From: an uncultured Prevotellaceae bacterium
GTDB taxonomy: Bacteria > Bacteroidota > Bacteroidia > Bacteroidales > Muribaculaceae
Reading direction: 5' to 3'
Assembly (NCBI GenBank): GCA_945645715.1
Contig: CALZFJ010000001.1
Location: 1 to 28,046 of the forward strand
DNA: 28,046 nt
Of the stretch, positions 353 to 8,900 are shown piece by piece (within the stretch, counting starts at the first letter, position 1; each line of letters begins with the position of its first letter). Below the pieces are notes generated by a model. The model was not told where the DNA came from. It was given only the letters and a program-made list of their open reading frames with translations, and ran no database searches. Made by a program: the position numbers and the translations under genes.

Positions 353-1159
353 ATGACACACCACATTCTCAATAGCAACCTCACCGGCACATTCGGCATC
401 GCGCTGAGTGGCGGAGGTGCACGCGGGTTTGCCCACGTGGGTGCACTAAAGGCTCTCGACGAATGTGGCATAAAGCCATCGGTTGTCGCCGGAGTGAGTG
501 CCGGCAGTGTCATCGCCAGCATGTATGCCGCCGGGCTGTCGGTTGATGATATGATGCGTGCCTTTGCCGACAAATCATTCAACGACCTTGCCGAGCTGAG
601 CGTCCCTAAAGACGGCTTTTTCCGCATGAACCGCTTTATTCGCCTCATGCGCAAGGCTATCCCATACACCAACATTGAAGACCTCCCAATCCCCACACTG
701 ATATGCGCAACCGACCTCAACCATTGCTCCCTCAAGGTGTTCGACTCAGGGGCAATCGCTGAGCGAATTGCAGCCTCATGCAGCATTCCCATCGTCTTCA
801 GCCCCATGAAAATCGATGGCACCTACTACGTAGATGGCGGCGTGCTCCACAATCTCCCCTCTGCCGTCATTCGCGACCGTTGCGACACGCTCATCGGCAT
901 CAACGTCAGCCCTTTCGTCCACGAAGAAAAATTCAAGCCCTCAATCCTCGAAGTGGCTCAGCGTAGCTACAAGATGATTTCGCGCAGCAACATGGATGCC
1001 GACAAAGCTCTCTGCGACATTGTGATAGAAATGGATAGCATCGCCCATCACAAGGTGTTCAGCATTAAGGCTATGTGGGAGATTGCCGACAAAGGATATA
1101 ATGAAACTATAAAAATATTAAAACAGAATAACTTATACAGAAACAATGGCAACGACTGA
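353..1159 (+). CDS. Patatin-like phospholipase family protein
   Basis: Glycine-rich loop SGGGARG, nucleophile elbow GVSAG and catalytic DGG (YVDGG). The track starts at TTG 350; the next codon, ATG 353, is used here. Confidence 0.93.
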   Translation: MTHHILNSNLTGTFGIALSGGGARGFAHVGALKALDECGIKPSVVAGVSAGSVIASMYAAGLSVDDMMRAFADKSFNDLAELSVPKDGFFRMNRFIRLMRKAIPYTNIEDLPIPTLICATDLNHCSLKVFDSGAIAERIAASCSIPIVFSPMKIDGTYYVDGGVLHNLPSAVIRDRCDTLIGINVSPFVHEEKFKPSILEVAQRSYKMISRSNMDADKALCDIVIEMDSIAHHKVFSIKAMWEIADKGYNETIKILKQNNLYRNNGND

Positions 1160-2885
1160 ACGTAAATCTATCAAGCCGGTCATTTACCAACTGTTCCCGC
1201 GCCTGTTCACCAACACTTGCGACAAGTGTGTTCCTTTTGGCACCATCGAGCAAAACGGCGTGGGCAAAATGAATGATATTACCGATTTTGTCCTCTCTAA
1301 AATAAAAGACCTCGGCATAACTCATGTGTGGTACACAGGTGTCATCGAGCACGCTCACACCACCGACTACTCAGCATATGGCATTCGCCCCGACAACCCT
1401 TACATCGTGAAGGGTAATGCCGGATCGCCATACGCCATTACCGACTACTACGACATCGACCCCGACATCGCAGTCGATGTGCCGCACCGCATGGACGAGT
1501 TTGAAGCCCTCGTGAAGCGCACACACTCTGCCGGAATGAAGGTAATCATCGACTTTGTACCCAATCACGTGGCACGCCAGTACCACTCCGACGCGAAGCC
1601 TGCCGGAATTGAGGACCTGGGCGAAAGCGACGACACAACTATGCAGTTCTCGCCTTCCAACAATTTCTACTACATATCACGTCAGCAATTCGCCCCACAC
1701 GACGTGTATCTCGGCGAAGGCGATGACCAATATCGCGAATTTCCTGCCAAAGCCACCGGAAACGACTGCTTCACCGCTTTCCCTGGACGCAACGACTGGT
1801 ACGAGACCGTTAAGCTCAACTATGGCATCGACTACGGCAACGGCTCCCGGCACTTCTCTCCCACTCCCGGCACATGGTTCAAGATGCTCAACATTCTCCG
1901 GTTCTGGTGCTCCAAAGGAATCGACGGTTTCCGCTGCGACATGGCTCACATGGTGCCCGTGGAGTTCTGGAAATGGGCCGTACCTCTTGTGAAGGAAAAA
2001 TACCCGCATGTGATATTCATCGCCGAAATCTACGACGTAGGCCTCTATCGCGACTACATCTATAACGGTGGATTTGACTATCTCTACGACAAAGTCAACC
2101 TCTACGATACTCTCCGCGGAATACAGTGCAACAACGTATCGGCAGCAAGCCTCACCAACTGCTGGCAGACCGTCGATGGCATTGCACGCCACATGCTCAA
2201 TTTCCTTGAGAACCACGACGAGCAGCGTTTTGCCTCTTGGCAATATGCCGGCGACGCTTCTCTCGTGCTGCCCTCTCTCGTGGTCAGCGCCACTTTTGCC
2301 ACCGGACCAATGATGATCTATCAAGGTCAGGAACTGGGTGAACGCGCAATCGACTCCGAAGGCTTCAGCGGGCGCGACGGACGCACCACAATCTTCGACT
2401 ACTGGAGCATTCCCACCGTACGCCGCTGGTACAACCATGGCAAATGCGACGACGAACACCTTTCACGATTCGAGCTTAACCTGCGACGAACCTACCAGAA
2501 AGTGCTCCTCATCTGCAACAACGAGCGAGCCATCGCCGAGGGTGCATTCTTCGACCTGATGTATGTGAACTATGGCAACCTCAATCCACATCGCCAGTTC
2601 ACATATCTGCGAAGCTACAAGAACGAGACTCTGCTCATCGCCGTCAACTTCGACAACGCACCTTGCAGCATCGACATCAACATTCCCATCCACGCCTTCG
2701 AGTGCCTCGGAATAAAGCAAGGCGAAGTCACTGCCGTAGATCTTCTCAGCGACCGCAGCACCACAGCCATGCTCGAAACCGGAACTCCATTCCACACCGA
2801 CATCGAAGCCCACGGCGCCGTCATCTGGAAACTAACCCCACTCCGCCGCACCTCCCGACCCCGCACATCTCGTCAGGCCAAGTGA
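1146..2885 (+). CDS. Alpha-amylase family glycoside hydrolase (GH13), no signal peptide so probably cytoplasmic
   Basis: GH13 regions DFVPNH, GFRCDMAH (nucleophile Asp), AEIY (acid/base Glu) and ENHDE. Overlaps the patatin stop by 14 nt, consistent with an operon. Confidence 0.93.
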   Translation: MATTERKSIKPVIYQLFPRLFTNTCDKCVPFGTIEQNGVGKMNDITDFVLSKIKDLGITHVWYTGVIEHAHTTDYSAYGIRPDNPYIVKGNAGSPYAITDYYDIDPDIAVDVPHRMDEFEALVKRTHSAGMKVIIDFVPNHVARQYHSDAKPAGIEDLGESDDTTMQFSPSNNFYYISRQQFAPHDVYLGEGDDQYREFPAKATGNDCFTAFPGRNDWYETVKLNYGIDYGNGSRHFSPTPGTWFKMLNILRFWCSKGIDGFRCDMAHMVPVEFWKWAVPLVKEKYPHVIFIAEIYDVGLYRDYIYNGGFDYLYDKVNLYDTLRGIQCNNVSAASLTNCWQTVDGIARHMLNFLENHDEQRFASWQYAGDASLVLPSLVVSATFATGPMMIYQGQELGERAIDSEGFSGRDGRTTIFDYWSIPTVRRWYNHGKCDDEHLSRFELNLRRTYQKVLLICNNERAIAEGAFFDLMYVNYGNLNPHRQFTYLRSYKNETLLIAVNFDNAPCSIDINIPIHAFECLGIKQGEVTAVDLLSDRSTTAMLETGTPFHTDIEAHGAVIWKLTPLRRTSRPRTSRQAK

Positions 2886-2932
2886 CTTGTATTTTTCTAA
2901 GCTAAATAGTTAGAAAGTTCCATAAAATTTCG

Positions 2933-2940
2933 TAACTTTG
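2933..2940 (+). promoter_or_regulatory. -7 promoter element for prs (TAACTTTG)
   Basis: TAACTTTGCA ~40 nt upstream of the prs ATG. Confidence 0.7.
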
Positions 2941-2978
2941 CAGAAAATTTCAAAACAGCCTATCTACATAAAAACATT

Positions 2979-3923
2979 ATGTGTGACTCTTTAACTCCGT
3001 TCAAGGTTTTCTCGGGCACTAAATCGCAATATTTAGCCGAGCAAATCTGCCAAGATCTTGGCGTAGAACTTGGCAAAATGAATATCCAGCGTTTTGCCGA
3101 TGGTGAATTTGAAGTATCATTCGAGGAATCTATCCGAGGATGTGAAGTTTATCTAATCCAATCGACTTTCCCCAACTGCGACAACCTCATGGAGCTTCTC
3201 CTTATGATTGATGCCGCTAAGCGTGCTTCGGCTAAGTCGATTATCGCCGTAATTCCATATTTCGGTTGGGCGCGTCAGGACCGCAAGGACAAGCCTCGCG
3301 TTTCTATCGCTGCAAAGCTCGTTGCCGACTTGCTCAGCACCGCAGGTATCGACCGCCTCATCACTATGGACTTGCACGCCGACCAAATTCAAGGTTTCTT
3401 CAACGTCCCTGTTGACCACCTCTATGCGTCTTCCTGCTTTATCCCCTACATCCAGTCGCTCAACCTCAAAGACCTGGTTATCGCTTCGCCCGACGTGGGT
3501 GGCGCAAAGCGTGCCAACTCTTATGCCAAGTATCTCAATACTCCTCTCGTGCTCTGCCACAAGCAGCGTGCCAAGGCCAACGTTGTTGAGAACATGACCA
3601 TCATTGGCGACGTCAAGGATAAGGATGTAATCCTCGTTGACGACATGGTTGATACAGCAGGAACCATCTGCAAGGCTGCCAACCTCATGATGGAGAATGG
3701 TGCCCGCTCGGTTCGCGCACTCGCTTCTCACGCTATCATGAGCGACCCCGCTTCGCAGCGTATCGATGACAGTGCTCTCACCGAGATGATTTTCTCCAAC
3801 AGCATTCCTCTCAACAAGGATTGCAAGAAGGTGACAATCCTCAGCATCGCAAGCCTCTTCGCCGACACAATCCGTCGCGTGCATGAGAACCGCTCTATCA
3901 GCTCGCAATATCTCATCAAGTAA
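2979..3923 (+). CDS. prs: Ribose-phosphate pyrophosphokinase (PRPP synthetase)
   Basis: RFADGE, PYFGWARQDRK, DLHADQIQGFF, SPDVGG and the PRPP-binding loop VDDMVDTAGT; 314 aa. Confidence 0.98.
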   Translation: MCDSLTPFKVFSGTKSQYLAEQICQDLGVELGKMNIQRFADGEFEVSFEESIRGCEVYLIQSTFPNCDNLMELLLMIDAAKRASAKSIIAVIPYFGWARQDRKDKPRVSIAAKLVADLLSTAGIDRLITMDLHADQIQGFFNVPVDHLYASSCFIPYIQSLNLKDLVIASPDVGGAKRANSYAKYLNTPLVLCHKQRAKANVVENMTIIGDVKDKDVILVDDMVDTAGTICKAANLMMENGARSVRALASHAIMSDPASQRIDDSALTEMIFSNSIPLNKDCKKVTILSIASLFADTIRRVHENRSISSQYLIK

Positions 3924-3951
3924 ATCAGGAAATATCCCCCAAAAAATAATC

Positions 3952-3987
3952 AGAGTCCCGGTTTAGCATCAGCTACACCGGGACTCT
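3952..3987. terminator. Probable bidirectional intrinsic terminator between convergent prs and the DUF5074 gene
   Basis: 10-bp stem AGAGTCCCGG (3952-3961)/CCGGGACTCT (3978-3987) plus an inner TAGC/GCTA stem; AT-rich flanks. Confidence 0.75.
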
Positions 3988-4028
3988 TGCTTATTAACTT
4001 ATTTATATATCACACTTTATTGTGCTAA

Positions 4029-5741
4029 TCACCTGATGACGATTTTTGTGGTCTCGCCTCCCACCTTCACAATATAGATTCCGGCTGTAGGCAATGTGAA
4101 CAGGGCACTTCCTGCCGATGCCTTGGCTGTTGCCACAAGTGTTCCCGATGCCGAATAGACCATCACGTCGCTTCCGGCAGCAGCTCCATTCACCGTCACT
4201 TCGTTGCCATACACTGCAACAAGCGATTTCCTTGCCACTTGTGTATCGAGGATGCCTGTGTTAGGATCAAATGTCACATTGATATACTTCTCGCATAGTT
4301 TACCATTGCTGTTAGCCTGAAGCAGAATCTTGCACGTTTCATAAGCCGAAGCCTTCACCGGCGTGATAAGCAGTTTCCCGTTTACCACTTCGGCACTTAT
4401 TTCACTGTTTGCTCCATTATCAACCGATTTCACGGTTTTCACAATCGAAGCCTGAATATTGTCATCATCGCTTACGATTTCATCAAGATTGAGCGTAGTA
4501 GGCTCACTCATGCCGATTGTAGCCTCAAAGTCGGCGATTTCAGGCTCTGCCACATCGGGGAATACGGGCAACGACGGGAACCAATAGTTTTCAATCATGC
4601 TGTGATCCTCAATCTTGTTGCCATCAGCATCATATTGGCGTAAAATGTAGGTCTTGTCACCCCACGAGTGGAACAATGATGTGTAAAGGTCGTCACTTTC
4701 AGGATCCACACGCATTGAGCAGCCATAAATCTGCCAGTTCTCACCATCGGCTTGGAGATCGACTATCTTTGTGAACGTGCCATTGTCGATGTCAAACTTG
4801 AATACCCTATATCCGCTGAACCAAGAGCTGTCGCCGCCGTTCCAATAGAGGACGTTGCTCTGTGTGCTGGCGCAGAAACCGTCGGGAGTCCACGCATACC
4901 ATGAATTGGCAGGACCATTGATACCGTCGGGCAATGCAATTACAGTGGTTTTGTGTGTTGCAGGGTCAAGCTTCATGATGCTTCTGTCGGCTGTCAAGCT
5001 GAGCCACAGATTGCCGTCTTTCGAGAGAACTACCGAACCAAACCCATTGCCGTCGGGTGCCTCAATCACTTCAACCACCTTATCGGTTGCCGGGTCAATC
5101 ACGAGCAAGCCCTTGTCCTGATGCACGGCATATACATATTCATTCACGCGCACCATCGTACCAATCTCTCCGCCATAGAGTTCATCATAGGCATTGTCGG
5201 CGCCATTGCCCGAGCCAGTGACTTTTCCTGTTATCGTAAAGTCGTCGAGATTCAATACGAAGATACCATCACTTGAGCCCACATAGCCCTTATGCTCATC
5301 TACGCCCACAAATCCACGTCCGTTGGCACCGCTTGTAGCTTCGGGATCGGTCGAAAGTATCCTTATCTGCTTGAGCAATTTCATGTCGGCAGCACTGCAC
5401 ACCGTAACACGGCCGCCTGCGATGCCGGCTCCCGGGTCTTGGTCCTGCTTTGAAATTACATAGAACCGATTGCCATAGATTGTTCCGAAATCGCTGGTGC
5501 AACCGACCTCCACACCCGGATTCTCCTGTTGCACAACGCGATATATCCACTTTCCATCGTCTTTCAGAAAGTTTACCGTTGAGTTCTGATGCCCAGTCCA
5601 GTCTTCATTCACCACAAATACGCCCTGTGTGTAATCTGCAAGCGGGGTGGTTTCTTCTTGTTGGCTTGCACCTTGTGCAGCCGATAGCGCTGAAACGCCT
5701 ATTAGCGGAAGTAGCGCAAAAAAGTAAAGTCTCTTTTTCAT
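4029..5741 (-). CDS. DUF5074-like (BtuG-related) beta-propeller surface protein with an Ig-like linker and a T9SS type-A-like C-terminal domain; putative cobalamin-binding protein
   Basis: N-terminal signal peptide without a lipobox Cys; GVFVVNEDWTGHQNSTVNFL...YVISKQ start typical of DUF5074; repeated VIDPAT/KLDPAT blade motifs; C-terminus ...VYSASGTLV...GIYIVKVGGETTKIVIR resembles the Por secretion tail; lies downstream of a cobalamin riboswitch. Confidence 0.8.
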   Translation of the reverse strand: MKKRLYFFALLPLIGVSALSAAQGASQQEETTPLADYTQGVFVVNEDWTGHQNSTVNFLKDDGKWIYRVVQQENPGVEVGCTSDFGTIYGNRFYVISKQDQDPGAGIAGGRVTVCSAADMKLLKQIRILSTDPEATSGANGRGFVGVDEHKGYVGSSDGIFVLNLDDFTITGKVTGSGNGADNAYDELYGGEIGTMVRVNEYVYAVHQDKGLLVIDPATDKVVEVIEAPDGNGFGSVVLSKDGNLWLSLTADRSIMKLDPATHKTTVIALPDGINGPANSWYAWTPDGFCASTQSNVLYWNGGDSSWFSGYRVFKFDIDNGTFTKIVDLQADGENWQIYGCSMRVDPESDDLYTSLFHSWGDKTYILRQYDADGNKIEDHSMIENYWFPSLPVFPDVAEPEIADFEATIGMSEPTTLNLDEIVSDDDNIQASIVKTVKSVDNGANSEISAEVVNGKLLITPVKASAYETCKILLQANSNGKLCEKYINVTFDPNTGILDTQVARKSLVAVYGNEVTVNGAAAGSDVMVYSASGTLVATAKASAGSALFTLPTAGIYIVKVGGETTKIVIR

Positions 5742-5804
5742 AATTGTTTTTTATTAGATTGAAAAAAAATATATGTCGAACGCTCTTTCCCCCAAGTCAT
5801 TGAT

Positions 5805-5963
5805 TTACGACCCCGAGAAATAGCATAGGCTATGCTTTGGCTGTTGAGCCTTGGCAGCCCTTCTCTGCCGAGTGTGTCGGGGGGCGGTGGCAAGTCCTGC
5901 AATGGCAGGTCTCGTCGGTCTTGAAAATCTAATGAGCCGTAGAAATGATTGGGTATAAGCCAT
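5805..5963 (-). CDS. Possible 52-aa basic leader ORF (MAYTQSFLRLIRFSRPTRPAIAGLATAPRHTRQRRAAKAQQPKHSLCYFSGS)
   Basis: ATG at 5963 follows an A-rich tract (AAAAAAGAAAAA) typical of Bacteroidetes initiation regions. No recognisable family, and it overlaps a hairpin-dense segment, so it may be non-coding. Confidence 0.25.
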   Translation of the reverse strand: MAYTQSFLRLIRFSRPTRPAIAGLATAPRHTRQRRAAKAQQPKHSLCYFSGS

Positions 5964-6056
5964 TTTTTCTTTTTTACTTGTTGATAAAAAATAGCTTACG
6001 GAGGCATCGACACTGCAAAGCACACCTCTGCATGGCGCGACAATGTGTCAATCTTT

Positions 6057-6064
6057 CAAATTTA
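6057..6064 (-). promoter_or_regulatory. Candidate internal -7 element (TAAATTTG) downstream of the riboswitch
   Basis: Exact TAnnTTTG match pointing toward the DUF5074 gene; only a T-run, not a clear TTTG, at the expected -33 position. Confidence 0.35.
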
Positions 6065-6164
6065 TGGGCAGAAACAATACGAAAAAAATGGATTATTTGC
6101 CACACAATGTAGTCGATAAATTGCTCTCCAATGCCTATTCCTCGTAAGCTATTGAAAATTTATT

Positions 6165-6355
6165 GAATGGCAGGTCTTCTGACTTATCGCCATCACCATG
6201 CTGTCTTCCCAAATCTATTGCTTTCGCGATTCAGTGACTTTGAATAGAGTGCCGGTGATGTGTTTTGCGACTTACAGCAGCGGGACTGTCCAGGATTCTC
6301 ACCTGATTCCCTATTAAGCTCGAGCCGGCAAAGTGTGCCGGCTTAGCACCAATTC
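6165..6355 (-). promoter_or_regulatory. Cobalamin (B12) riboswitch aptamer, long form with peripheral extension (AdoCbl/Cbl-I-like)
   Basis: Minus strand reads GGTGC...AATAGGGAATCAGGTGAGAATCCTGGACAGTCCCGCTGCTGTAA...GTCACTG...GGGAAG...AAGTCAGAAGACCTGCC, i.e. all canonical conserved blocks including the B12 box. Confidence 0.95.
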
Positions 6356-6359
6356 TGTG

Positions 6360-6393
6360 CAAATGTAGCAGAATTATTTTGTATTATAGCAAA
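6360..6393 (-). promoter_or_regulatory. Promoter of the riboswitch/DUF5074 transcript
   Basis: -7 TACATTTG (6367-6360) and -33 TTTG (6393-6390) with a 22-nt spacer, immediately upstream of the aptamer. Confidence 0.75.
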
Positions 6394-6431
6394 AATTAAC
6401 CCTCATTAACATTAAATGCGGAATATACATC

Positions 6432-6456
6432 TTGAATACCGTTATACATAATTCAA
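6432..6456. promoter_or_regulatory. Palindrome TTGAAT-N13-ATTCAA, candidate operator of the umuD-umuC promoter
   Basis: TTGAAT (6432-6437) and ATTCAA (6451-6456), ending 10 nt upstream of the -7 element and covering the expected -33 region. Confidence 0.45.
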
Positions 6457-6466
6457 AATTTTTCAT

Positions 6467-6474
6467 TATCTTTG
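6467..6474 (+). promoter_or_regulatory. -7 promoter element for umuD-umuC (TATCTTTG)
   Basis: TATCTTTGCA 34 nt upstream of the ATG at 6509. Confidence 0.75.
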
Positions 6475-6508
6475 CACACAGTATTGACACCGACAACCCA
6501 CACTCTAT

Positions 6509-7117
6509 ATGGACACAAAGAAATATTCACACGGCGGAAGCCGACCAGGTGCCGGACGTCCGCGCACCGACAGCCGCCTCTATGCCTTCCGCGCCGGAGG
6601 TGAAGTGGCTCATGCCATCGACGCAAGCCATAACAAGTCGGAATTTATCACCGACTGCATTTCCACAGCCCTCAAGATGCAGCCTCTCGGAAAGGTGTAT
6701 CACGCTGCCGAAGTAAAACCCCTCCACCTACCCTTCTTCGACATCAGCGTGGTTGCCGGATTCCCCATTCCGCTCGACAACGACGAGCTGGCACAGGACA
6801 TAGAGCTGCTGCGTATGCTTTGCCCCAACCCCGAGGCCTCCTACCTCATTCGCGTGGAAGGGAACTCAATGATTGATGCCGACATTCACTCCGGCGACAT
6901 TCTCATTGTGGACAAAAGCAACCGCAACCCATCGGAGCACGAGGTAGCCCTATGTGAGCTAAATGGAGAATACACCATAAAATACGTCAATTCGCGCAAC
7001 GGAAAGTGGTGGCTCGTTCCAGCCAACCCCGATTTCCCCGAGATAGAGATAGCTCCCGGCGACAACTTCAACGTGTGGGGCGTAGTAACCTACATAATCC
7101 ACCGCCCCCGCTCCTAA
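6509..7117 (+). CDS. umuD: UmuD/LexA-family S24 self-cleaving peptidase with a long N-terminal extension (UmuDAb-like)
   Basis: Ala-Gly cleavage site VAGFP, catalytic Ser in GNSM, catalytic Lys in YTIK, C-terminal VWGVVT; ~70 extra N-terminal residues starting HGGSRPGAGRP. Confidence 0.88.
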   Translation: MDTKKYSHGGSRPGAGRPRTDSRLYAFRAGGEVAHAIDASHNKSEFITDCISTALKMQPLGKVYHAAEVKPLHLPFFDISVVAGFPIPLDNDELAQDIELLRMLCPNPEASYLIRVEGNSMIDADIHSGDILIVDKSNRNPSEHEVALCELNGEYTIKYVNSRNGKWWLVPANPDFPEIEIAPGDNFNVWGVVTYIIHRPRS

Positions 7118-7119
7118 TC

Positions 7120-7154
7120 CCTCTCACCCTCTTACCTCTCACCTCTTACCTCTA
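7120..7154 (+). repeat. Heptamer tandem repeat CCTCT(C/T)A, about 5 units, in the umuD-umuC gap
   Basis: cctctca-c-cctctta-cctctca-cctctta-cctcta read directly from the sequence. Confidence 0.8.
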
Positions 7155-7161
7155 CAGAATC

Positions 7162-8430
7162 ATGATCGCCCTCGTAGATTGCAACAGCTTCTTCTGCTCG
7201 GTGGAAAAAGTGTTCCACCCCGGACTCAACGGCAAGCCGGTGTGCGTGCTGTCGAGCAACGACGGCTGCATCGTAGCGCTCACTCCCGAGGCTAAAGCCC
7301 TCGGGTTAAGCCGCGGAATGCCAGTCTTCAAGGTGCGCGACATCATCAATGCTCACAACGTACACATCTTCTCAGGAAATATGACCCTCTACGCCGCCAT
7401 GTCGCGACGCGTCACTGGCATTCTACGCAAAAGCATCGCCCACGTAGAAAACTACAGCATCGATGAGAGTTTCTGCTATCTCGATGGATACAACCGCATT
7501 GCTTCGCCCGAAAACTTCATGCGCGAGGTGGCGACACGAGTGCACCAATTCACCGACATTCCCGTGAGCGTAGGAATAGCACCATCGAAAACACTCGCAA
7601 AAATCGGCAGCAAATTCGCCAAAAAATATAAGGGCTACCGCTCCGTGTGCGTTATCGACACCGAAGCCAAGCGCCGCAAAGCACTCAGCTTGTCGAACCT
7701 CGACGACATCTGGGGCATCGGCCGCAGCACACGCGCCAAGCTCGCCTATCTCGGAGTGAACTCTCCGCTCGAATTTGCCGACAAACCCGAGGGCTGGGTG
7801 CGCACCCACTTCCATCTGCCCGGCATTCGCATGTGGCTGGAGCTAAACGGACACCCCTGCATCGACACTTCAGAGATTTTGCAGCGACAGACCATCTGCA
7901 CCAGCCGCAGCTTCGGCAATATGATTGGCGACATCAGCCACATGCGTGAATCGGTGGCGCACTTCGCCGCAAGCTGCGCCAACATTTTGCGCGGTCAAGG
8001 CTCTGTGGCAAGGCAAGTCACTGTGTTCATTCACAGCAACAGCTTCCGTGAAGACCTCAAGCAGCATGTGGGATTCGACACCATTCGGCTAAACGTCGCC
8101 ACTGCCGACACCATGGAGATTACTGCCGCTGCACTGAAAATCCTCGACAGCATATTCCATCAAGGAATTCTCTACAAAAAAGCCGGAGTGGAGCTGTCGG
8201 GAATCTCATCTGCCAACCCATGCCAGCTCCAGCTCTTCGACAGCGTGACAAACCGACGCGAACGAGCCTCGCTCATGAATACCATCGATGCTCTCAATCA
8301 CCGATATGGCATCAAAAGCCTTCATCTGGCAGCCGAGGGTGATGCCGCAAGCCCTTGGATGGTGAAGTGTGAGCATCGAAGCCGCAACTATCTCTCCGAC
8401 ATCAACGAAATCCTCACCGTGAAGATTTAA
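7162..8430 (+). CDS. umuC: Y-family translesion DNA polymerase, UmuC-like, with DUF4113-type C-terminal tail
   Basis: MIALVDCNSFFCS, VLSSNDGC, YSIDESF (catalytic Asp-Glu), SVGIAPSKTLAK, IWGIG and C-terminal PW..K..HRS..Y. Real start is taken as ATG 7162; the track's 7006 start overlaps umuD. Confidence 0.93.
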   Translation: MIALVDCNSFFCSVEKVFHPGLNGKPVCVLSSNDGCIVALTPEAKALGLSRGMPVFKVRDIINAHNVHIFSGNMTLYAAMSRRVTGILRKSIAHVENYSIDESFCYLDGYNRIASPENFMREVATRVHQFTDIPVSVGIAPSKTLAKIGSKFAKKYKGYRSVCVIDTEAKRRKALSLSNLDDIWGIGRSTRAKLAYLGVNSPLEFADKPEGWVRTHFHLPGIRMWLELNGHPCIDTSEILQRQTICTSRSFGNMIGDISHMRESVAHFAASCANILRGQGSVARQVTVFIHSNSFREDLKQHVGFDTIRLNVATADTMEITAAALKILDSIFHQGILYKKAGVELSGISSANPCQLQLFDSVTNRRERASLMNTIDALNHRYGIKSLHLAAEGDAASPWMVKCEHRSRNYLSDINEILTVKI

Positions 8431-8497: not shown

Positions 8498-8893
8498 GGG
8501 GGTGAATGGCTTTGACAGCGTGTAGAAGCGGTGTGTAAGCATGCAGAGCGATGATGGCTATGCTCTTTAATCTCAGACATCAAAAATTTAACTGGCGAAA
8601 ATAACTACGCTCTTGCTGCTTGATTGAAGTATAGTAGATCAGCTTAATCTCTGCCAAAGTGCGCAGAGACAAGACATCACCCGATTGCCCCGTTCCGAGA
8701 CGTTTCGATAAGGTGGTGCTAAGAAATTCGGAAATTGACCCGCATGCTCCTCGGTTGCGGGTTGAAATTTAGAGGATAAGTTTCAGGTTGGTAGTCGAGA
8801 TCCTGCCTGTTGCCGACAACCAAGTCACGACTAAGCATGTAGAAAGCCCATTGGTTCCGCGTTTGGACGAGGGTTCAAACCCCTCCACCTCCA
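8498..8893 (+). ncRNA. ssrA: Transfer-messenger RNA, tag peptide (A)GENNYALAA*
   Basis: 5' GGGGGTG pairs with CACCTCC (8886-8892) including the G3-U alanine determinant; T-arm GAGGGTTCAAACCCCTC; tag frame GGC GAA AAT AAC TAC GCT CTT GCT GCT TGA at 8594-8623; 396 nt. The discriminator A is followed by CAA, so CCA is not fully encoded. Confidence 0.96.
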
Positions 8894-8900
8894 CAACAAT

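What the first reader, a model, noticed from the sequence alone, without database searches (positions are those of the whole stretch)
5990..6153. 11-bp inverted repeat enclosing a promoter-like element between the riboswitch and its gene: invertible switch or large-loop terminator
Seen: AATAGCTTACG (5990-6000) and CGTAAGCTATT (6143-6153) are perfect reverse complements with 142 bp between them. An inner AGGCAT/ATGCCT pairing can extend the helix, the downstream arm ends in a T6 run on the mRNA strand, and a TAAATTTG -7 match (6064-6057) lies inside, facing the gene. Established: Bacteroidales phase-vary surface proteins with IR-flanked invertible promoters, sometimes flipped by recombinases acting in trans. 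Inference A: an inverton whose current orientation bypasses the riboswitch and whose flipped state would fire antisense into it, layering phase variation on B12 sensing. Inference B: a long-range terminator-like helix of the riboswitch expression platform. No recombinase is in the window.
Basis: partly seen in the sequence, partly recalled or inferred. Interest (0 to 1): 0.68.

Follow-up and report, generated by a model that had tools for sequence, protein, structure and literature searches.

The report
Riboswitch RNA helix, not DNA switch
The 11-base inverted repeat is a conserved RNA helix in the output stage of a vitamin B12 riboswitch, most likely keeping the start codon of the downstream gene open when B12 is scarce; it is not a flippable DNA promoter, so it is an ordinary, if unusually long-range, piece of a known kind of switch.

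Summary
The repeat is real: 5990-6000 and 6143-6153, 11/11 bases, 142 nt apart. Its meaning comes from relatives, not statistics.

It lies on the minus strand just 3' of a cobalamin riboswitch aptamer (6368..6152). The same two arms sit at the same place and in the same orientation in more than 20 related Bacteroidota genomes. The arms co-vary (for example AAUAGC/GCUAUU, AAAAGC/GCUUUU, UCGAAAGC/GCUUUCGA).

- **5' arm:** it is also the 5' half and loop of a local hairpin, P13, with the invariant loop ACGAGGWAU.
- **3' arm:** with its U-run it is also complementary to the A-rich start-codon region (5968..5955), again with covariation.

Best reading is a three-way translational switch. B12 stabilises P13, which frees the 3' arm to mask the start codon. 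Without B12 the two arms pair (anti-sequestor) and the start codon is open.

- **Inverton:** not supported. There are no inverted joints in contigs of four pig-gut runs, the inner promoter motif is not conserved, and no recombinase is present.
- **Terminator:** unlikely. Relatives keep only about two U after the helix.

In this genome the controlled btuB is deleted to a 52-codon remnant.

The scan has noted long structured B12-btuB spacers on other DNA before; those notes are unchecked.

The parts
6360..6393 (-). Promoter-like elements of the riboswitch transcript: TTTG (6393..6390), a 22-nt spacer, TACATTTG (6367..6360)
   Evidence: Match to the Bacteroidia-type TAnnTTTG -7 motif directly 5' of the aptamer. 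This is an inference; no TSS data exist.
6152..6368 (-). Cobalamin riboswitch aptamer (RF00174); L5 reads UCCCG
   Evidence: cmscan 86.9 bits, gathering score 31.5, E 2e-20, full-length model match.
6129..6154 (-). P13 candidate hairpin CAAU(A)GCUU[ACGAGGAAU]AGGCAUUG; the loop 6145..6137 is the candidate L13 kissing-loop partner of L5
   Evidence: RNAalifold predicts it in 14 and in 11 related leaders, with only pair-preserving changes: UA/UG, GC/GU, and RRGC variants AGGC, AAGC, GAGC. Local fold is -5.2 kcal/mol. In G112 (L041) this hairpin is followed directly by the btuB AUG. The kissing-loop role is inferred.
6143..6153 (-). S1: 5' arm of the inverted repeat (AAUAGCUUACG on the RNA); it overlaps the 5' strand and loop of P13
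6001..6142 (-). Interior domain. In this genome its two halves pair with each other, so the repeat closes a 165-nt rod-like hairpin. It holds TAAATTTG at 6064..6057.
   Evidence: MFE -56.6 kcal/mol, z = -5.3 against 200 shuffles. The 5' half is conserved in G001, while the structure is not conserved across genera.
5986..6000 (-). S2: 3' arm of the inverted repeat (CGUAAGCUAUU, 6000..5990) plus the U-run; the strand that switches partner between S1 and S3
   Evidence: Pairs with S1. Pairs with S3 as a 14-bp hairpin of -11.5 kcal/mol (pair I7, 24, 26, 56).
5955..5968 (-). S3: AAAAAAUGGCUUAU, the A-rich initiation region and start codon (AUG 5963..5961) of the former btuB
   Evidence: Aligns with the btuB start in G001 and G012. 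Compensatory changes against S2 occur in relatives.
5805..5963 (-). Remnant of btuB: a 52-codon ORF with internal frameshifts relative to the G001 BtuB plug domain
   Evidence: Translation. Nucleotide alignment to G001 btuB. Top tblastn hit of G001 BtuB residues 54-72 at 5875..5819 in another frame, 12/19 identical, E 0.4, weak on its own.
4029..5741 (-). DUF5074 beta-propeller gene with a weak DUF6383 tail; it is the only intact gene left behind the riboswitch
   Evidence: Pfam PF16819, E 1e-116. Its ortholog (63% identity) is the fifth gene of the riboswitch-btuB operon in G001.

Best explanation
The inverted repeat is the closing helix (S1:S2) of the ligand-free conformer of a cobalamin riboswitch expression platform, read on the minus strand. 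Three segments compete. S1 (6153..6143) lies just 3' of the aptamer. S2 (6000..5986) lies 142 nt downstream. S3 (5968..5955) holds the A-rich initiation region and the AUG. S1 is also the 5' strand and loop of the local hairpin P13, whose invariant loop ACGAGGWAU is the likely L13 partner of aptamer loop L5 (UCCCG). With B12 bound, the L5-L13 kissing loop should lock P13 and withdraw S1. S2 then folds back on S3 and buries the start codon in a 14-bp hairpin, so translation is off. Without B12, P13 is weak (-5 kcal/mol). S2 captures S1, the whole interior zips into a long hairpin, S3 stays single-stranded and translation is on. Shown here: the two arms and both alternative pairings are conserved and co-vary, and the two conformers are near-isoenergetic. 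Inferred: the kissing loop, the direction of the switch, and a translational read-out. In this genome the gene whose start codon is gated (btuB) has been reduced to a 52-codon remnant. Any control of the downstream DUF5074 gene would therefore be indirect, or may be lost.
For: (1) Position: the repeat starts one base after the aptamer match ends. (2) Conservation: the congener G001 keeps both arms at the same site, with the 3' arm reading UGUAAGCUAUU, which gives a G:U pair. The next genus, G012, keeps a 9-bp core. 23 riboswitch-linked leaders from several genera, plus one from another family, have the same layout. (3) S1:S2 covariation: double changes at four positions, for example UA 9 / AU 6 / CG 3 / UG 2 at one pair and AU 13 / GC 3 / UA 1 at another. 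On a MAFFT alignment not fitted to the structure, all but 2 of the 112 cells of the 8 core pairs form standard pairs. Cognate S1/S2 duplexes average -15.7 against -11.9 kcal/mol for non-cognate ones, permutation p = 5e-5 over 9 S1 classes. (4) Alternative conformer: RNAalifold on 14 and on 11 leaders predicts P13 plus the S2:S3 hairpin, with 3 pairs changed on both sides. Cognate S2/S3 duplexes average -8.9 against -5.9 kcal/mol, p = 5e-5. Examples are UUUUUU/AAAAAA here, UUUUAA/UUAAAA in G012, and UUUUGAC/GUCAAAA in L047. (5) Energetics in the window: forcing S1:S2 gives -57.3 and forcing S2:S3 gives -55.2 kcal/mol. Across relatives the MFE picks one or the other conformer. (6) G112 has P13 directly before the btuB AUG, with no interior and no S2. 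This is a minimal platform showing that P13 is the regulatory hairpin. (7) Literature: the kissing loop stabilises P13, and an alternative helix competes with P13 in repressing corrinoid riboswitches (PMC10327014). Bacteroidetes mRNAs lack Shine-Dalgarno sequences and initiation is tuned by mRNA structure (PMC6847099 abstract). The window's TGT protein matches Bacteroidota clusters.
Against: There are no experimental data: no probing, no reporter, no TSS or 3'-end mapping. The L5-L13 pairing CCCG with CG(A)GG needs a bulged A, and it shows no covariation because both loops are invariant in the sample, which was itself collected with the CGAGG motif. Duplex energies on the sense and antisense strands are the same on average (-15.0 against -15.2), so strand-specific wobble pairs do not prove an RNA rather than a DNA repeat. 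In G012 the extended helix is actually better on the antisense strand. The relatives are kin, so the permutation p-values overstate independence. S2:S3 pairing is weak or absent in some leaders (L036, L049, L091-L093). In the window itself the helix plus UUUUAU could still cause some termination.
Confidence: 0.7

Rival explanations
1. Terminator. The S1:S2 helix, stacked on the folded interior, followed by the U-run acts as an intrinsic terminator of the riboswitch transcript.
For: In the window the repeat closes a stable 165-nt hairpin (-56.6 kcal/mol, z -5.3), followed by UUUUAU beyond the paired bases, which is T6 counting two paired U. G001 has the same tail. Some Gram-negative cobalamin riboswitches do act on transcription (PMC12121620).
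Against: The helix excludes P13/L13, so it should form without B12. A terminator in that state would switch the gene off in both states. The consensus scan finds no terminator-like site in 5650-6520. In most relatives only about two U follow the helix (GCUAUU|UUAACUG, |UUGAUUAA, and none in L036, L039, L090, L093). The bases after the arm co-vary with the bases 5' of the AUG, which explains the U-run.
Confidence: 0.12
2. Relic. The structure is a genuine riboswitch platform, but in this genome it no longer regulates anything useful because btuB and three further genes were deleted. It is a decaying leftover in front of DUF5074.
For: About 7.6 kb present in G001 between the btuB start and the DUF5074 ortholog is missing here, and the gated AUG now opens a 52-codon frameshifted remnant. 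Pig-gut strains vary in the length of the S3 A-run.
Against: The aptamer still scores 86.9 bits, and S1, S2 and S3 are all intact and 100% complementary. No other promoter motif lies between the leader and DUF5074, so that gene is probably still transcribed through the switch. This rival concerns present use, not what the repeat is, and it is compatible with the best explanation.
Confidence: 0.12
3. Inverton. The repeats are recombinase sites and the 164-bp segment flips, carrying a promoter.
For: The size (164 bp) and an inner TAAATTTG facing the gene resemble Bacteroidales invertible promoters. An 11-bp perfect repeat is present.
Against: Contigs from three DNA runs and one RNA-library run cross the repeat region collinear with the window (one run's contigs break only at a strain variant near 5963-5970, outside the repeat arms), and no strand-changing joint is reported. 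All related genomes show the same orientation. The inner motif is not conserved. The DNA repeat shrinks to 8-9 bp with mismatches in other genera, while RNA pairing is kept. There are no other copies of the stretch in the genome and no recombinase in the window. Both arms have independent RNA partners.
Confidence: 0.02
4. Chance repeat, or a small mobile element with terminal inverted repeats inserted in the leader.
For: About 1.6 such 11-mer inverted pairs are expected per window by chance.
Against: The repeat is conserved at the orthologous site across genera with compensatory changes. It is single-copy in the genome, and no target-site duplication is visible.
Confidence: 0.01

Closest known systems
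Repressing corrinoid riboswitch expression platform with P13, antiterminator and terminator (Priestia megaterium metE; PMC10327014)
   Same: The aptamer is followed by a P13 hairpin whose loop L13 kisses L5. A weak P13 competes with a more stable alternative helix. Three mutually exclusive helices convert ligand binding into OFF.
   Different: There the 3' side of P13 pairs with the 5' side of a terminator, the read-out is transcription termination, and the spacers reported for 38 riboswitches are 0-82 nt. Here the 5' side and loop of P13 pair with a strand 100-142 nt downstream, across a folded insert, and the read-out is most likely start-codon masking.
Translational cobalamin riboswitches of E. 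coli btuB and env8HyCbl (as summarised in PMC10327014)
   Same: Kissing-loop formation stabilises P13 and promotes a hairpin that hides the translation initiation region of a B12 transporter gene.
   Different: Those hide a Shine-Dalgarno sequence close to P13. Here there is no Shine-Dalgarno sequence (Bacteroidota), and what is hidden is an A-run plus the AUG, by a U-rich strand placed far from P13.
Bacteroidales invertible promoters (invertons)
   Same: Short inverted repeats about 150-200 bp apart in front of a surface-protein gene, with a TAnnTTTG-like motif inside.
   Different: No second orientation was seen in any data, the motif is not conserved, there is no recombinase, the repeat is only 8-11 bp, and both arms are accounted for by RNA pairings.
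Rho-independent terminator
   Same: A stable stem followed by U residues on the mRNA strand.
   Different: The stem closes a 142-nt domain rather than a short loop. The U-tract is short and not conserved, and it pairs with the initiation region.

Membership tests
Cobalamin riboswitch (RF00174) with a kissing-loop expression platform | Aptamer matching the covariance model above its gathering score | tested here: met
   86.9 bits against 31.5, full-length match, 6368..6152 on the minus strand.
Cobalamin riboswitch (RF00174) with a kissing-loop expression platform | P13 hairpin 3' of P1 whose loop is complementary to L5 | tested here: inconclusive
   The hairpin is predicted by RNAalifold with only pair-preserving changes. 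Loop CG(A)GG against L5 CCCG gives 4 pairs with a bulged A. Both loops are invariant, so there is no covariation, and there is no probing.
Cobalamin riboswitch (RF00174) with a kissing-loop expression platform | Mutually exclusive alternative helices linking P13 to the initiation region or a terminator | tested here: met
   S1:S2 and S2:S3 both co-vary, and the two conformers differ by about 2 kcal/mol.
Cobalamin riboswitch (RF00174) with a kissing-loop expression platform | Corrinoid-dependent repression of the downstream gene | not testable with these tools
   Needs a reporter assay or probing.
Bacteroidales inverton (invertible promoter) | Both orientations present in sequence data | tested here: not met
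   Collinear contigs in 4 runs and no strand-change joints, and one orientation in more than 20 related genomes. Caveat: contigs drop rare variants and raw reads were not available.
Bacteroidales inverton (invertible promoter) | Functional promoter inside the invertible segment | tested here: not met
   TAAATTTG has no TTTG at -33. It is TAAAATTG in G001 and absent in other genera. No TSS data exist.
Bacteroidales inverton (invertible promoter) | Site-specific recombinase nearby, or the repeat motif shared with other invertons of the genome | tested here: not met
   No recombinase domain in the window's ORFs and no second copy of the stretch in the 80%-complete genome. A recombinase acting in trans cannot be excluded.
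Rho-independent terminator | Compact G+C-rich hairpin followed at once by a conserved U-tract | tested here: not met
   0 terminator-like sites in the scan. The stem encloses 142 nt, and the post-helix U count is about 4 here and about 2 or 0 in relatives.
Miniature inverted-repeat transposable element | Multiple copies and a target-site duplication | tested here: not met
   Single copy in the genome, and the flanks AUUUUC / UUUUAU are not a duplication.

The most novel reading that the evidence does not exclude
The 100-140-nt insert between P13 and the switching strand may not be a passive spacer. It could be a co-transcriptional delay line or a second input. It would give the aptamer the time of about 140 nt of transcription to bind B12 before S2 appears and can invade P13, or it would bind a protein or sRNA. 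That would make this family-wide platform a kinetically timed or two-input translational riboswitch adapted to ribosomes that ignore Shine-Dalgarno sequences. After the operon truncation, the platform (or the inner TAAATTTG) may have been re-used to control the orphan BtuG-like DUF5074 gene through the 52-codon remnant ORF.
Probability: 0.12. Interest if true: 0.5.

Novelty: new variant of a known kind. Interest (0 to 1): 0.28.

Why it matters
It removes a false lead. An inverted repeat with a promoter-like motif between a riboswitch and a surface-protein gene looks like a phase-variation switch, but here it is RNA structure. This is a useful caution for inverton searches in Bacteroidales.

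It also gives a concrete model, supported by covariation, of how a cobalamin riboswitch can gate translation in a phylum whose ribosomes do not use Shine-Dalgarno sequences. A U-rich strand is handed between the kissing-loop hairpin and the A-rich start region, over more than 100 nt. The model can be tested directly with three sets of compensatory mutations.

The locus further shows a B12-uptake operon of a pig-gut commensal cut down to a single BtuG-like gene behind an intact switch.

Tried and rejected
- **Rfam at a permissive threshold, 5600-6500:** nothing but the aptamer, so no second, tandem riboswitch despite the repeated AGACCTGCCATT.
- **Self-search of the genome with 5960-6180:** no other copy, so a repeat-family or mobile-element reading was dropped.
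- **Loose pattern GACCNGCC-N(12-40)-CGAGGWAT:** mostly chance hits, with controls equally frequent. Only hits with a riboswitch-like flank were used.
- **Sense against antisense duplex energies:** no difference on average, so the wobble argument is not used as proof of an RNA rather than a DNA repeat.
- **Reads:** all runs holding the locus are kept only as contigs. Rare inversions, transcription start sites and RNA 3' ends could not be assessed. The RNA-library contig spans the whole stretch and may be DNA carry-over.
- **tblastn of G001 and G012 BtuB on the window:** only a weak top hit (E 0.4). The remnant claim rests on this hit together with collinearity and the nucleotide alignment.
- **Alignment of the window's DUF5074 upstream region with that of G001:** no clear deletion junction.
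- **Review by Lennon and Batey 2022:** not held in the library.
- **The count of structure pairs:** not used, to avoid typing long dot-bracket strings. The same counts were made in Python on alignment A2.

Full report
**Observation.** The repeat is exactly as described. AATAGCTTACG (5990-6000) and CGTAAGCTATT (6143-6153) are perfect complements, 142 nt apart (pair I13). The inner AGGCAT/ATGCCT pair, the T6 run on the mRNA strand and TAAATTTG at 6064..6057 are all present. Taken alone the repeat is not statistically striking. About 1.6 perfect 11-mer inverted pairs within 200 nt are expected per window of this composition, and about six such loci occur.

**Context.**
- A cobalamin riboswitch aptamer lies at 6368..6152 on the minus strand (86.9 bits, cut-off 31.5). 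It is preceded by TTTG-22 nt-TACATTTG.
- The 5' arm of the repeat begins one base after the aptamer match ends.
- The next intact gene on that strand is a DUF5074 propeller (5741..4029).
- No second aptamer is hidden in the leader.
- The organism is a pig-gut member of the Bacteroidota, represented by an 80%-complete metagenome-assembled genome.

**Relatives.**
- In the congener G001 the same aptamer is followed by the same two arms. The 5' arm is identical and the 3' arm reads UGUAAGCUAUU, which gives a G:U pair. The start codon of a 670-aa TonB-dependent receptor, btuB, follows directly.
- A different genus, G012, keeps a 9-bp core.
- Pattern searches in 300-400 genomes of the family gave 23 riboswitch-linked leaders with nine different versions of the 5' arm.
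- A search of 250 genomes from 148 families of the order found one more, and it has the same architecture.
- In every case the element has the same orientation relative to the aptamer.

**The two arms co-vary.**
- RNAduplex of the 5' arm against the rest of each leader finds its partner just upstream of the start codon.
- Pair types change on both sides at four positions. Examples are UA 9 / AU 6 / CG 3 / UG 2, and AU 13 / GC 3 / UA 1.
- Concrete cases are AAUAGC/GCUAUU (window), AAAAGC/GCUUUU (L057, L088), UCGAAAGC/GCUUUCGA (L039, L040), CUUGCGAG/CUCGCAAG (L042), CAACAG/CUGUUG (L089) and GCUUUC/GAAAGC (L093).
- Cognate arm pairs are 3.8 kcal/mol more stable than non-cognate ones, permutation p = 5e-5 over nine classes. 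These classes are kin, so the p-value overstates independence.
- On a plain MAFFT alignment of 14 leaders the eight core pairs are kept in all but two of 112 cells, whereas sliding the partner by 1-3 columns loses most pairs.

**Each arm has a second partner.**
- RNAalifold on the same alignments does not return the long-range helix. It returns the other conformer.
- The first element is a local hairpin directly after the aptamer, UUCAA.GCUUA[CGAGGWA]URRGC.UUGRA, called P13 here.
- The second is a hairpin between the 3' arm with its tail and the start-codon region. Three of its pairs changed on both sides.
- In the window this second hairpin is UAAGCUAUUUUUU (5998..5986) with AAAAAAUGGCUUA (5968..5956), -11.5 kcal/mol, and the AUG sits in the stem (pair I7, 24).
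- The tail co-varies with the bases 5' of the AUG: UUUUUU/AAAAAA here, UUUUAA/UUAAAA in G012, UUUUG/CAAAA and UUUUGAC/GUCAAAA elsewhere. Cognate duplexes average -8.9 against -5.9 kcal/mol for non-cognate ones, p = 5e-5.
- Forcing either conformer in the window gives -57.3 (arms paired) against -55.2 kcal/mol (start codon masked). Among relatives the MFE falls on either side.
- With the arms paired, the window's interior zips into a 165-nt rod (z = -5.3). This would offset the cost of closing a 142-nt loop.

**Mechanism (inferred).**
- Work on corrinoid riboswitches shows that ligand binding stabilises P13 through an L5-L13 kissing loop. In repressing switches an alternative helix competes with P13 (PMC10327014).
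- Here the invariant P13 loop contains CG(A)GG and L5 is UCCCG.
- G112 has P13 immediately before the btuB AUG, with no insert. This marks P13 as the regulatory hairpin.
- The 5' arm of the repeat is the 5' strand and loop of P13. The long-range helix therefore cannot coexist with a kissing loop and should be the ligand-free state.
- In that state the start region is free. With B12, the 3' arm is released and masks the AUG.
- Bacteroidetes mRNAs lack Shine-Dalgarno sequences and their initiation is tuned by mRNA structure (PMC6847099). This fits a sequestor aimed at an A-run plus the AUG.
- I put 0.7 on this model, and more than 0.9 on the weaker statement that the repeat is an RNA helix of the expression platform.

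**Inverton.**
- Contigs from three DNA runs and one RNA-library run of pig-gut samples cross the repeat region collinear with the window. One run breaks only at a strain variant near 5963-5970, outside the repeat arms.
- The only joints reported lie in the conserved aptamer and come from other organisms' riboswitches.
- Contigs cannot exclude rare variants.
- The inner TAAATTTG lacks a -33 TTTG. It is TAAAATTG in G001 and absent in other genera.
- There is no recombinase in the window and no second copy of the stretch in the genome.

**Terminator.**
- The scan finds none.
- Beyond the paired bases the window has UUUUAU, but most relatives have two U or none.
- A terminator that forms without B12 would leave the gene off in both states.
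- Some termination in this lineage cannot be excluded.

**What the switch now controls.**
- In G001 the operon is riboswitch, btuB, DUF5074 (385 aa), BspA-type LRR protein (1103 aa), unknown (407 aa), DUF5074 (575 aa, 63% identical to the window's gene) and a DUF6383 protein.
- In the window about 7.6 kb of this is missing.
- The gated AUG opens a 52-codon ORF (5963..5805). Its sequence aligns with the btuB plug region but in shifted frames.
- The pig-gut contigs have the same arrangement, so it is not an assembly error.

**Comparison and novelty.** The logic of kissing loop, P13, competing helix and occluding helix is known. The differences are:
- it is the 5' side and loop of P13 that is captured;
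- the capture spans 100-142 nt, longer than the 0-82 nt reported for 38 riboswitches;
- the target is a start region without a Shine-Dalgarno sequence.

This is a new variant of a known kind, and of modest interest. Earlier first-reader notes of this scan mention long structured spacers between B12 riboswitches and btuB in other Bacteroidota windows. I did not test them.

Noticed in passing
window 5742-5963 (minus strand); L099 (G001:C109) 564-8324: The riboswitch's own target, btuB, survives only as a frameshifted 52-codon remnant. About 7.6 kb present in the congener G001 is missing: btuB, a 385-aa DUF5074 protein, a 1103-aa BspA-type LRR protein and a 407-aa unknown. The riboswitch therefore now sits directly before the orphan DUF5074 gene.
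   Followed up: yes
window 6166-6177 and 5901-5912: Exact 12-nt direct repeat AATGGCAGGTCT (AGACCTGCCATT on the RNA strand). One copy is the 3' end of the aptamer core and the other lies inside the btuB remnant. In the second copy CCTGC CATT GCAGG can form a small hairpin. Chance is roughly 0.02 for this region. It is unexplained.
   Followed up: partly
L045-L057, L088, L094 (alignment A4 columns 36-68): In sister genera the interior holds a conserved hairpin AAGAC...GUCUU followed by CUUUUU right after P13. This is a weak terminator-like element. It is absent from the window and from G001.
   Followed up: partly
L041 (G112:C131, about 30073-30150): A minimal version of the platform: the P13 hairpin is followed after 12 nt by the btuB AUG, with no insert and no second arm.
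   Followed up: partly
G000:C163:3583-3766 (L100 1501-1684): Second cobalamin riboswitch of the same genome (87.5 bits) with an unrelated, roughly 270-nt leader. Its likely L13 reads UCGGGA, and it precedes a different signal-peptide protein.
   Followed up: no
window 5963-5970 and 6260: Strain variation in pig-gut metagenomes: one A fewer in the A-run just before the AUG (three runs), T>C at 5970, and a C inserted after 6260 in the aptamer.
   Followed up: no
window 8498-8896 (+): tmRNA gene (RF00023, 139.5 bits).
   Followed up: no
window 6509-8430 (+): Divergently transcribed S24 peptidase (UmuD/LexA-like) and Y-family polymerase (umuC-like) pair that shares the intergenic region with the riboswitch promoter.
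   Followed up: no
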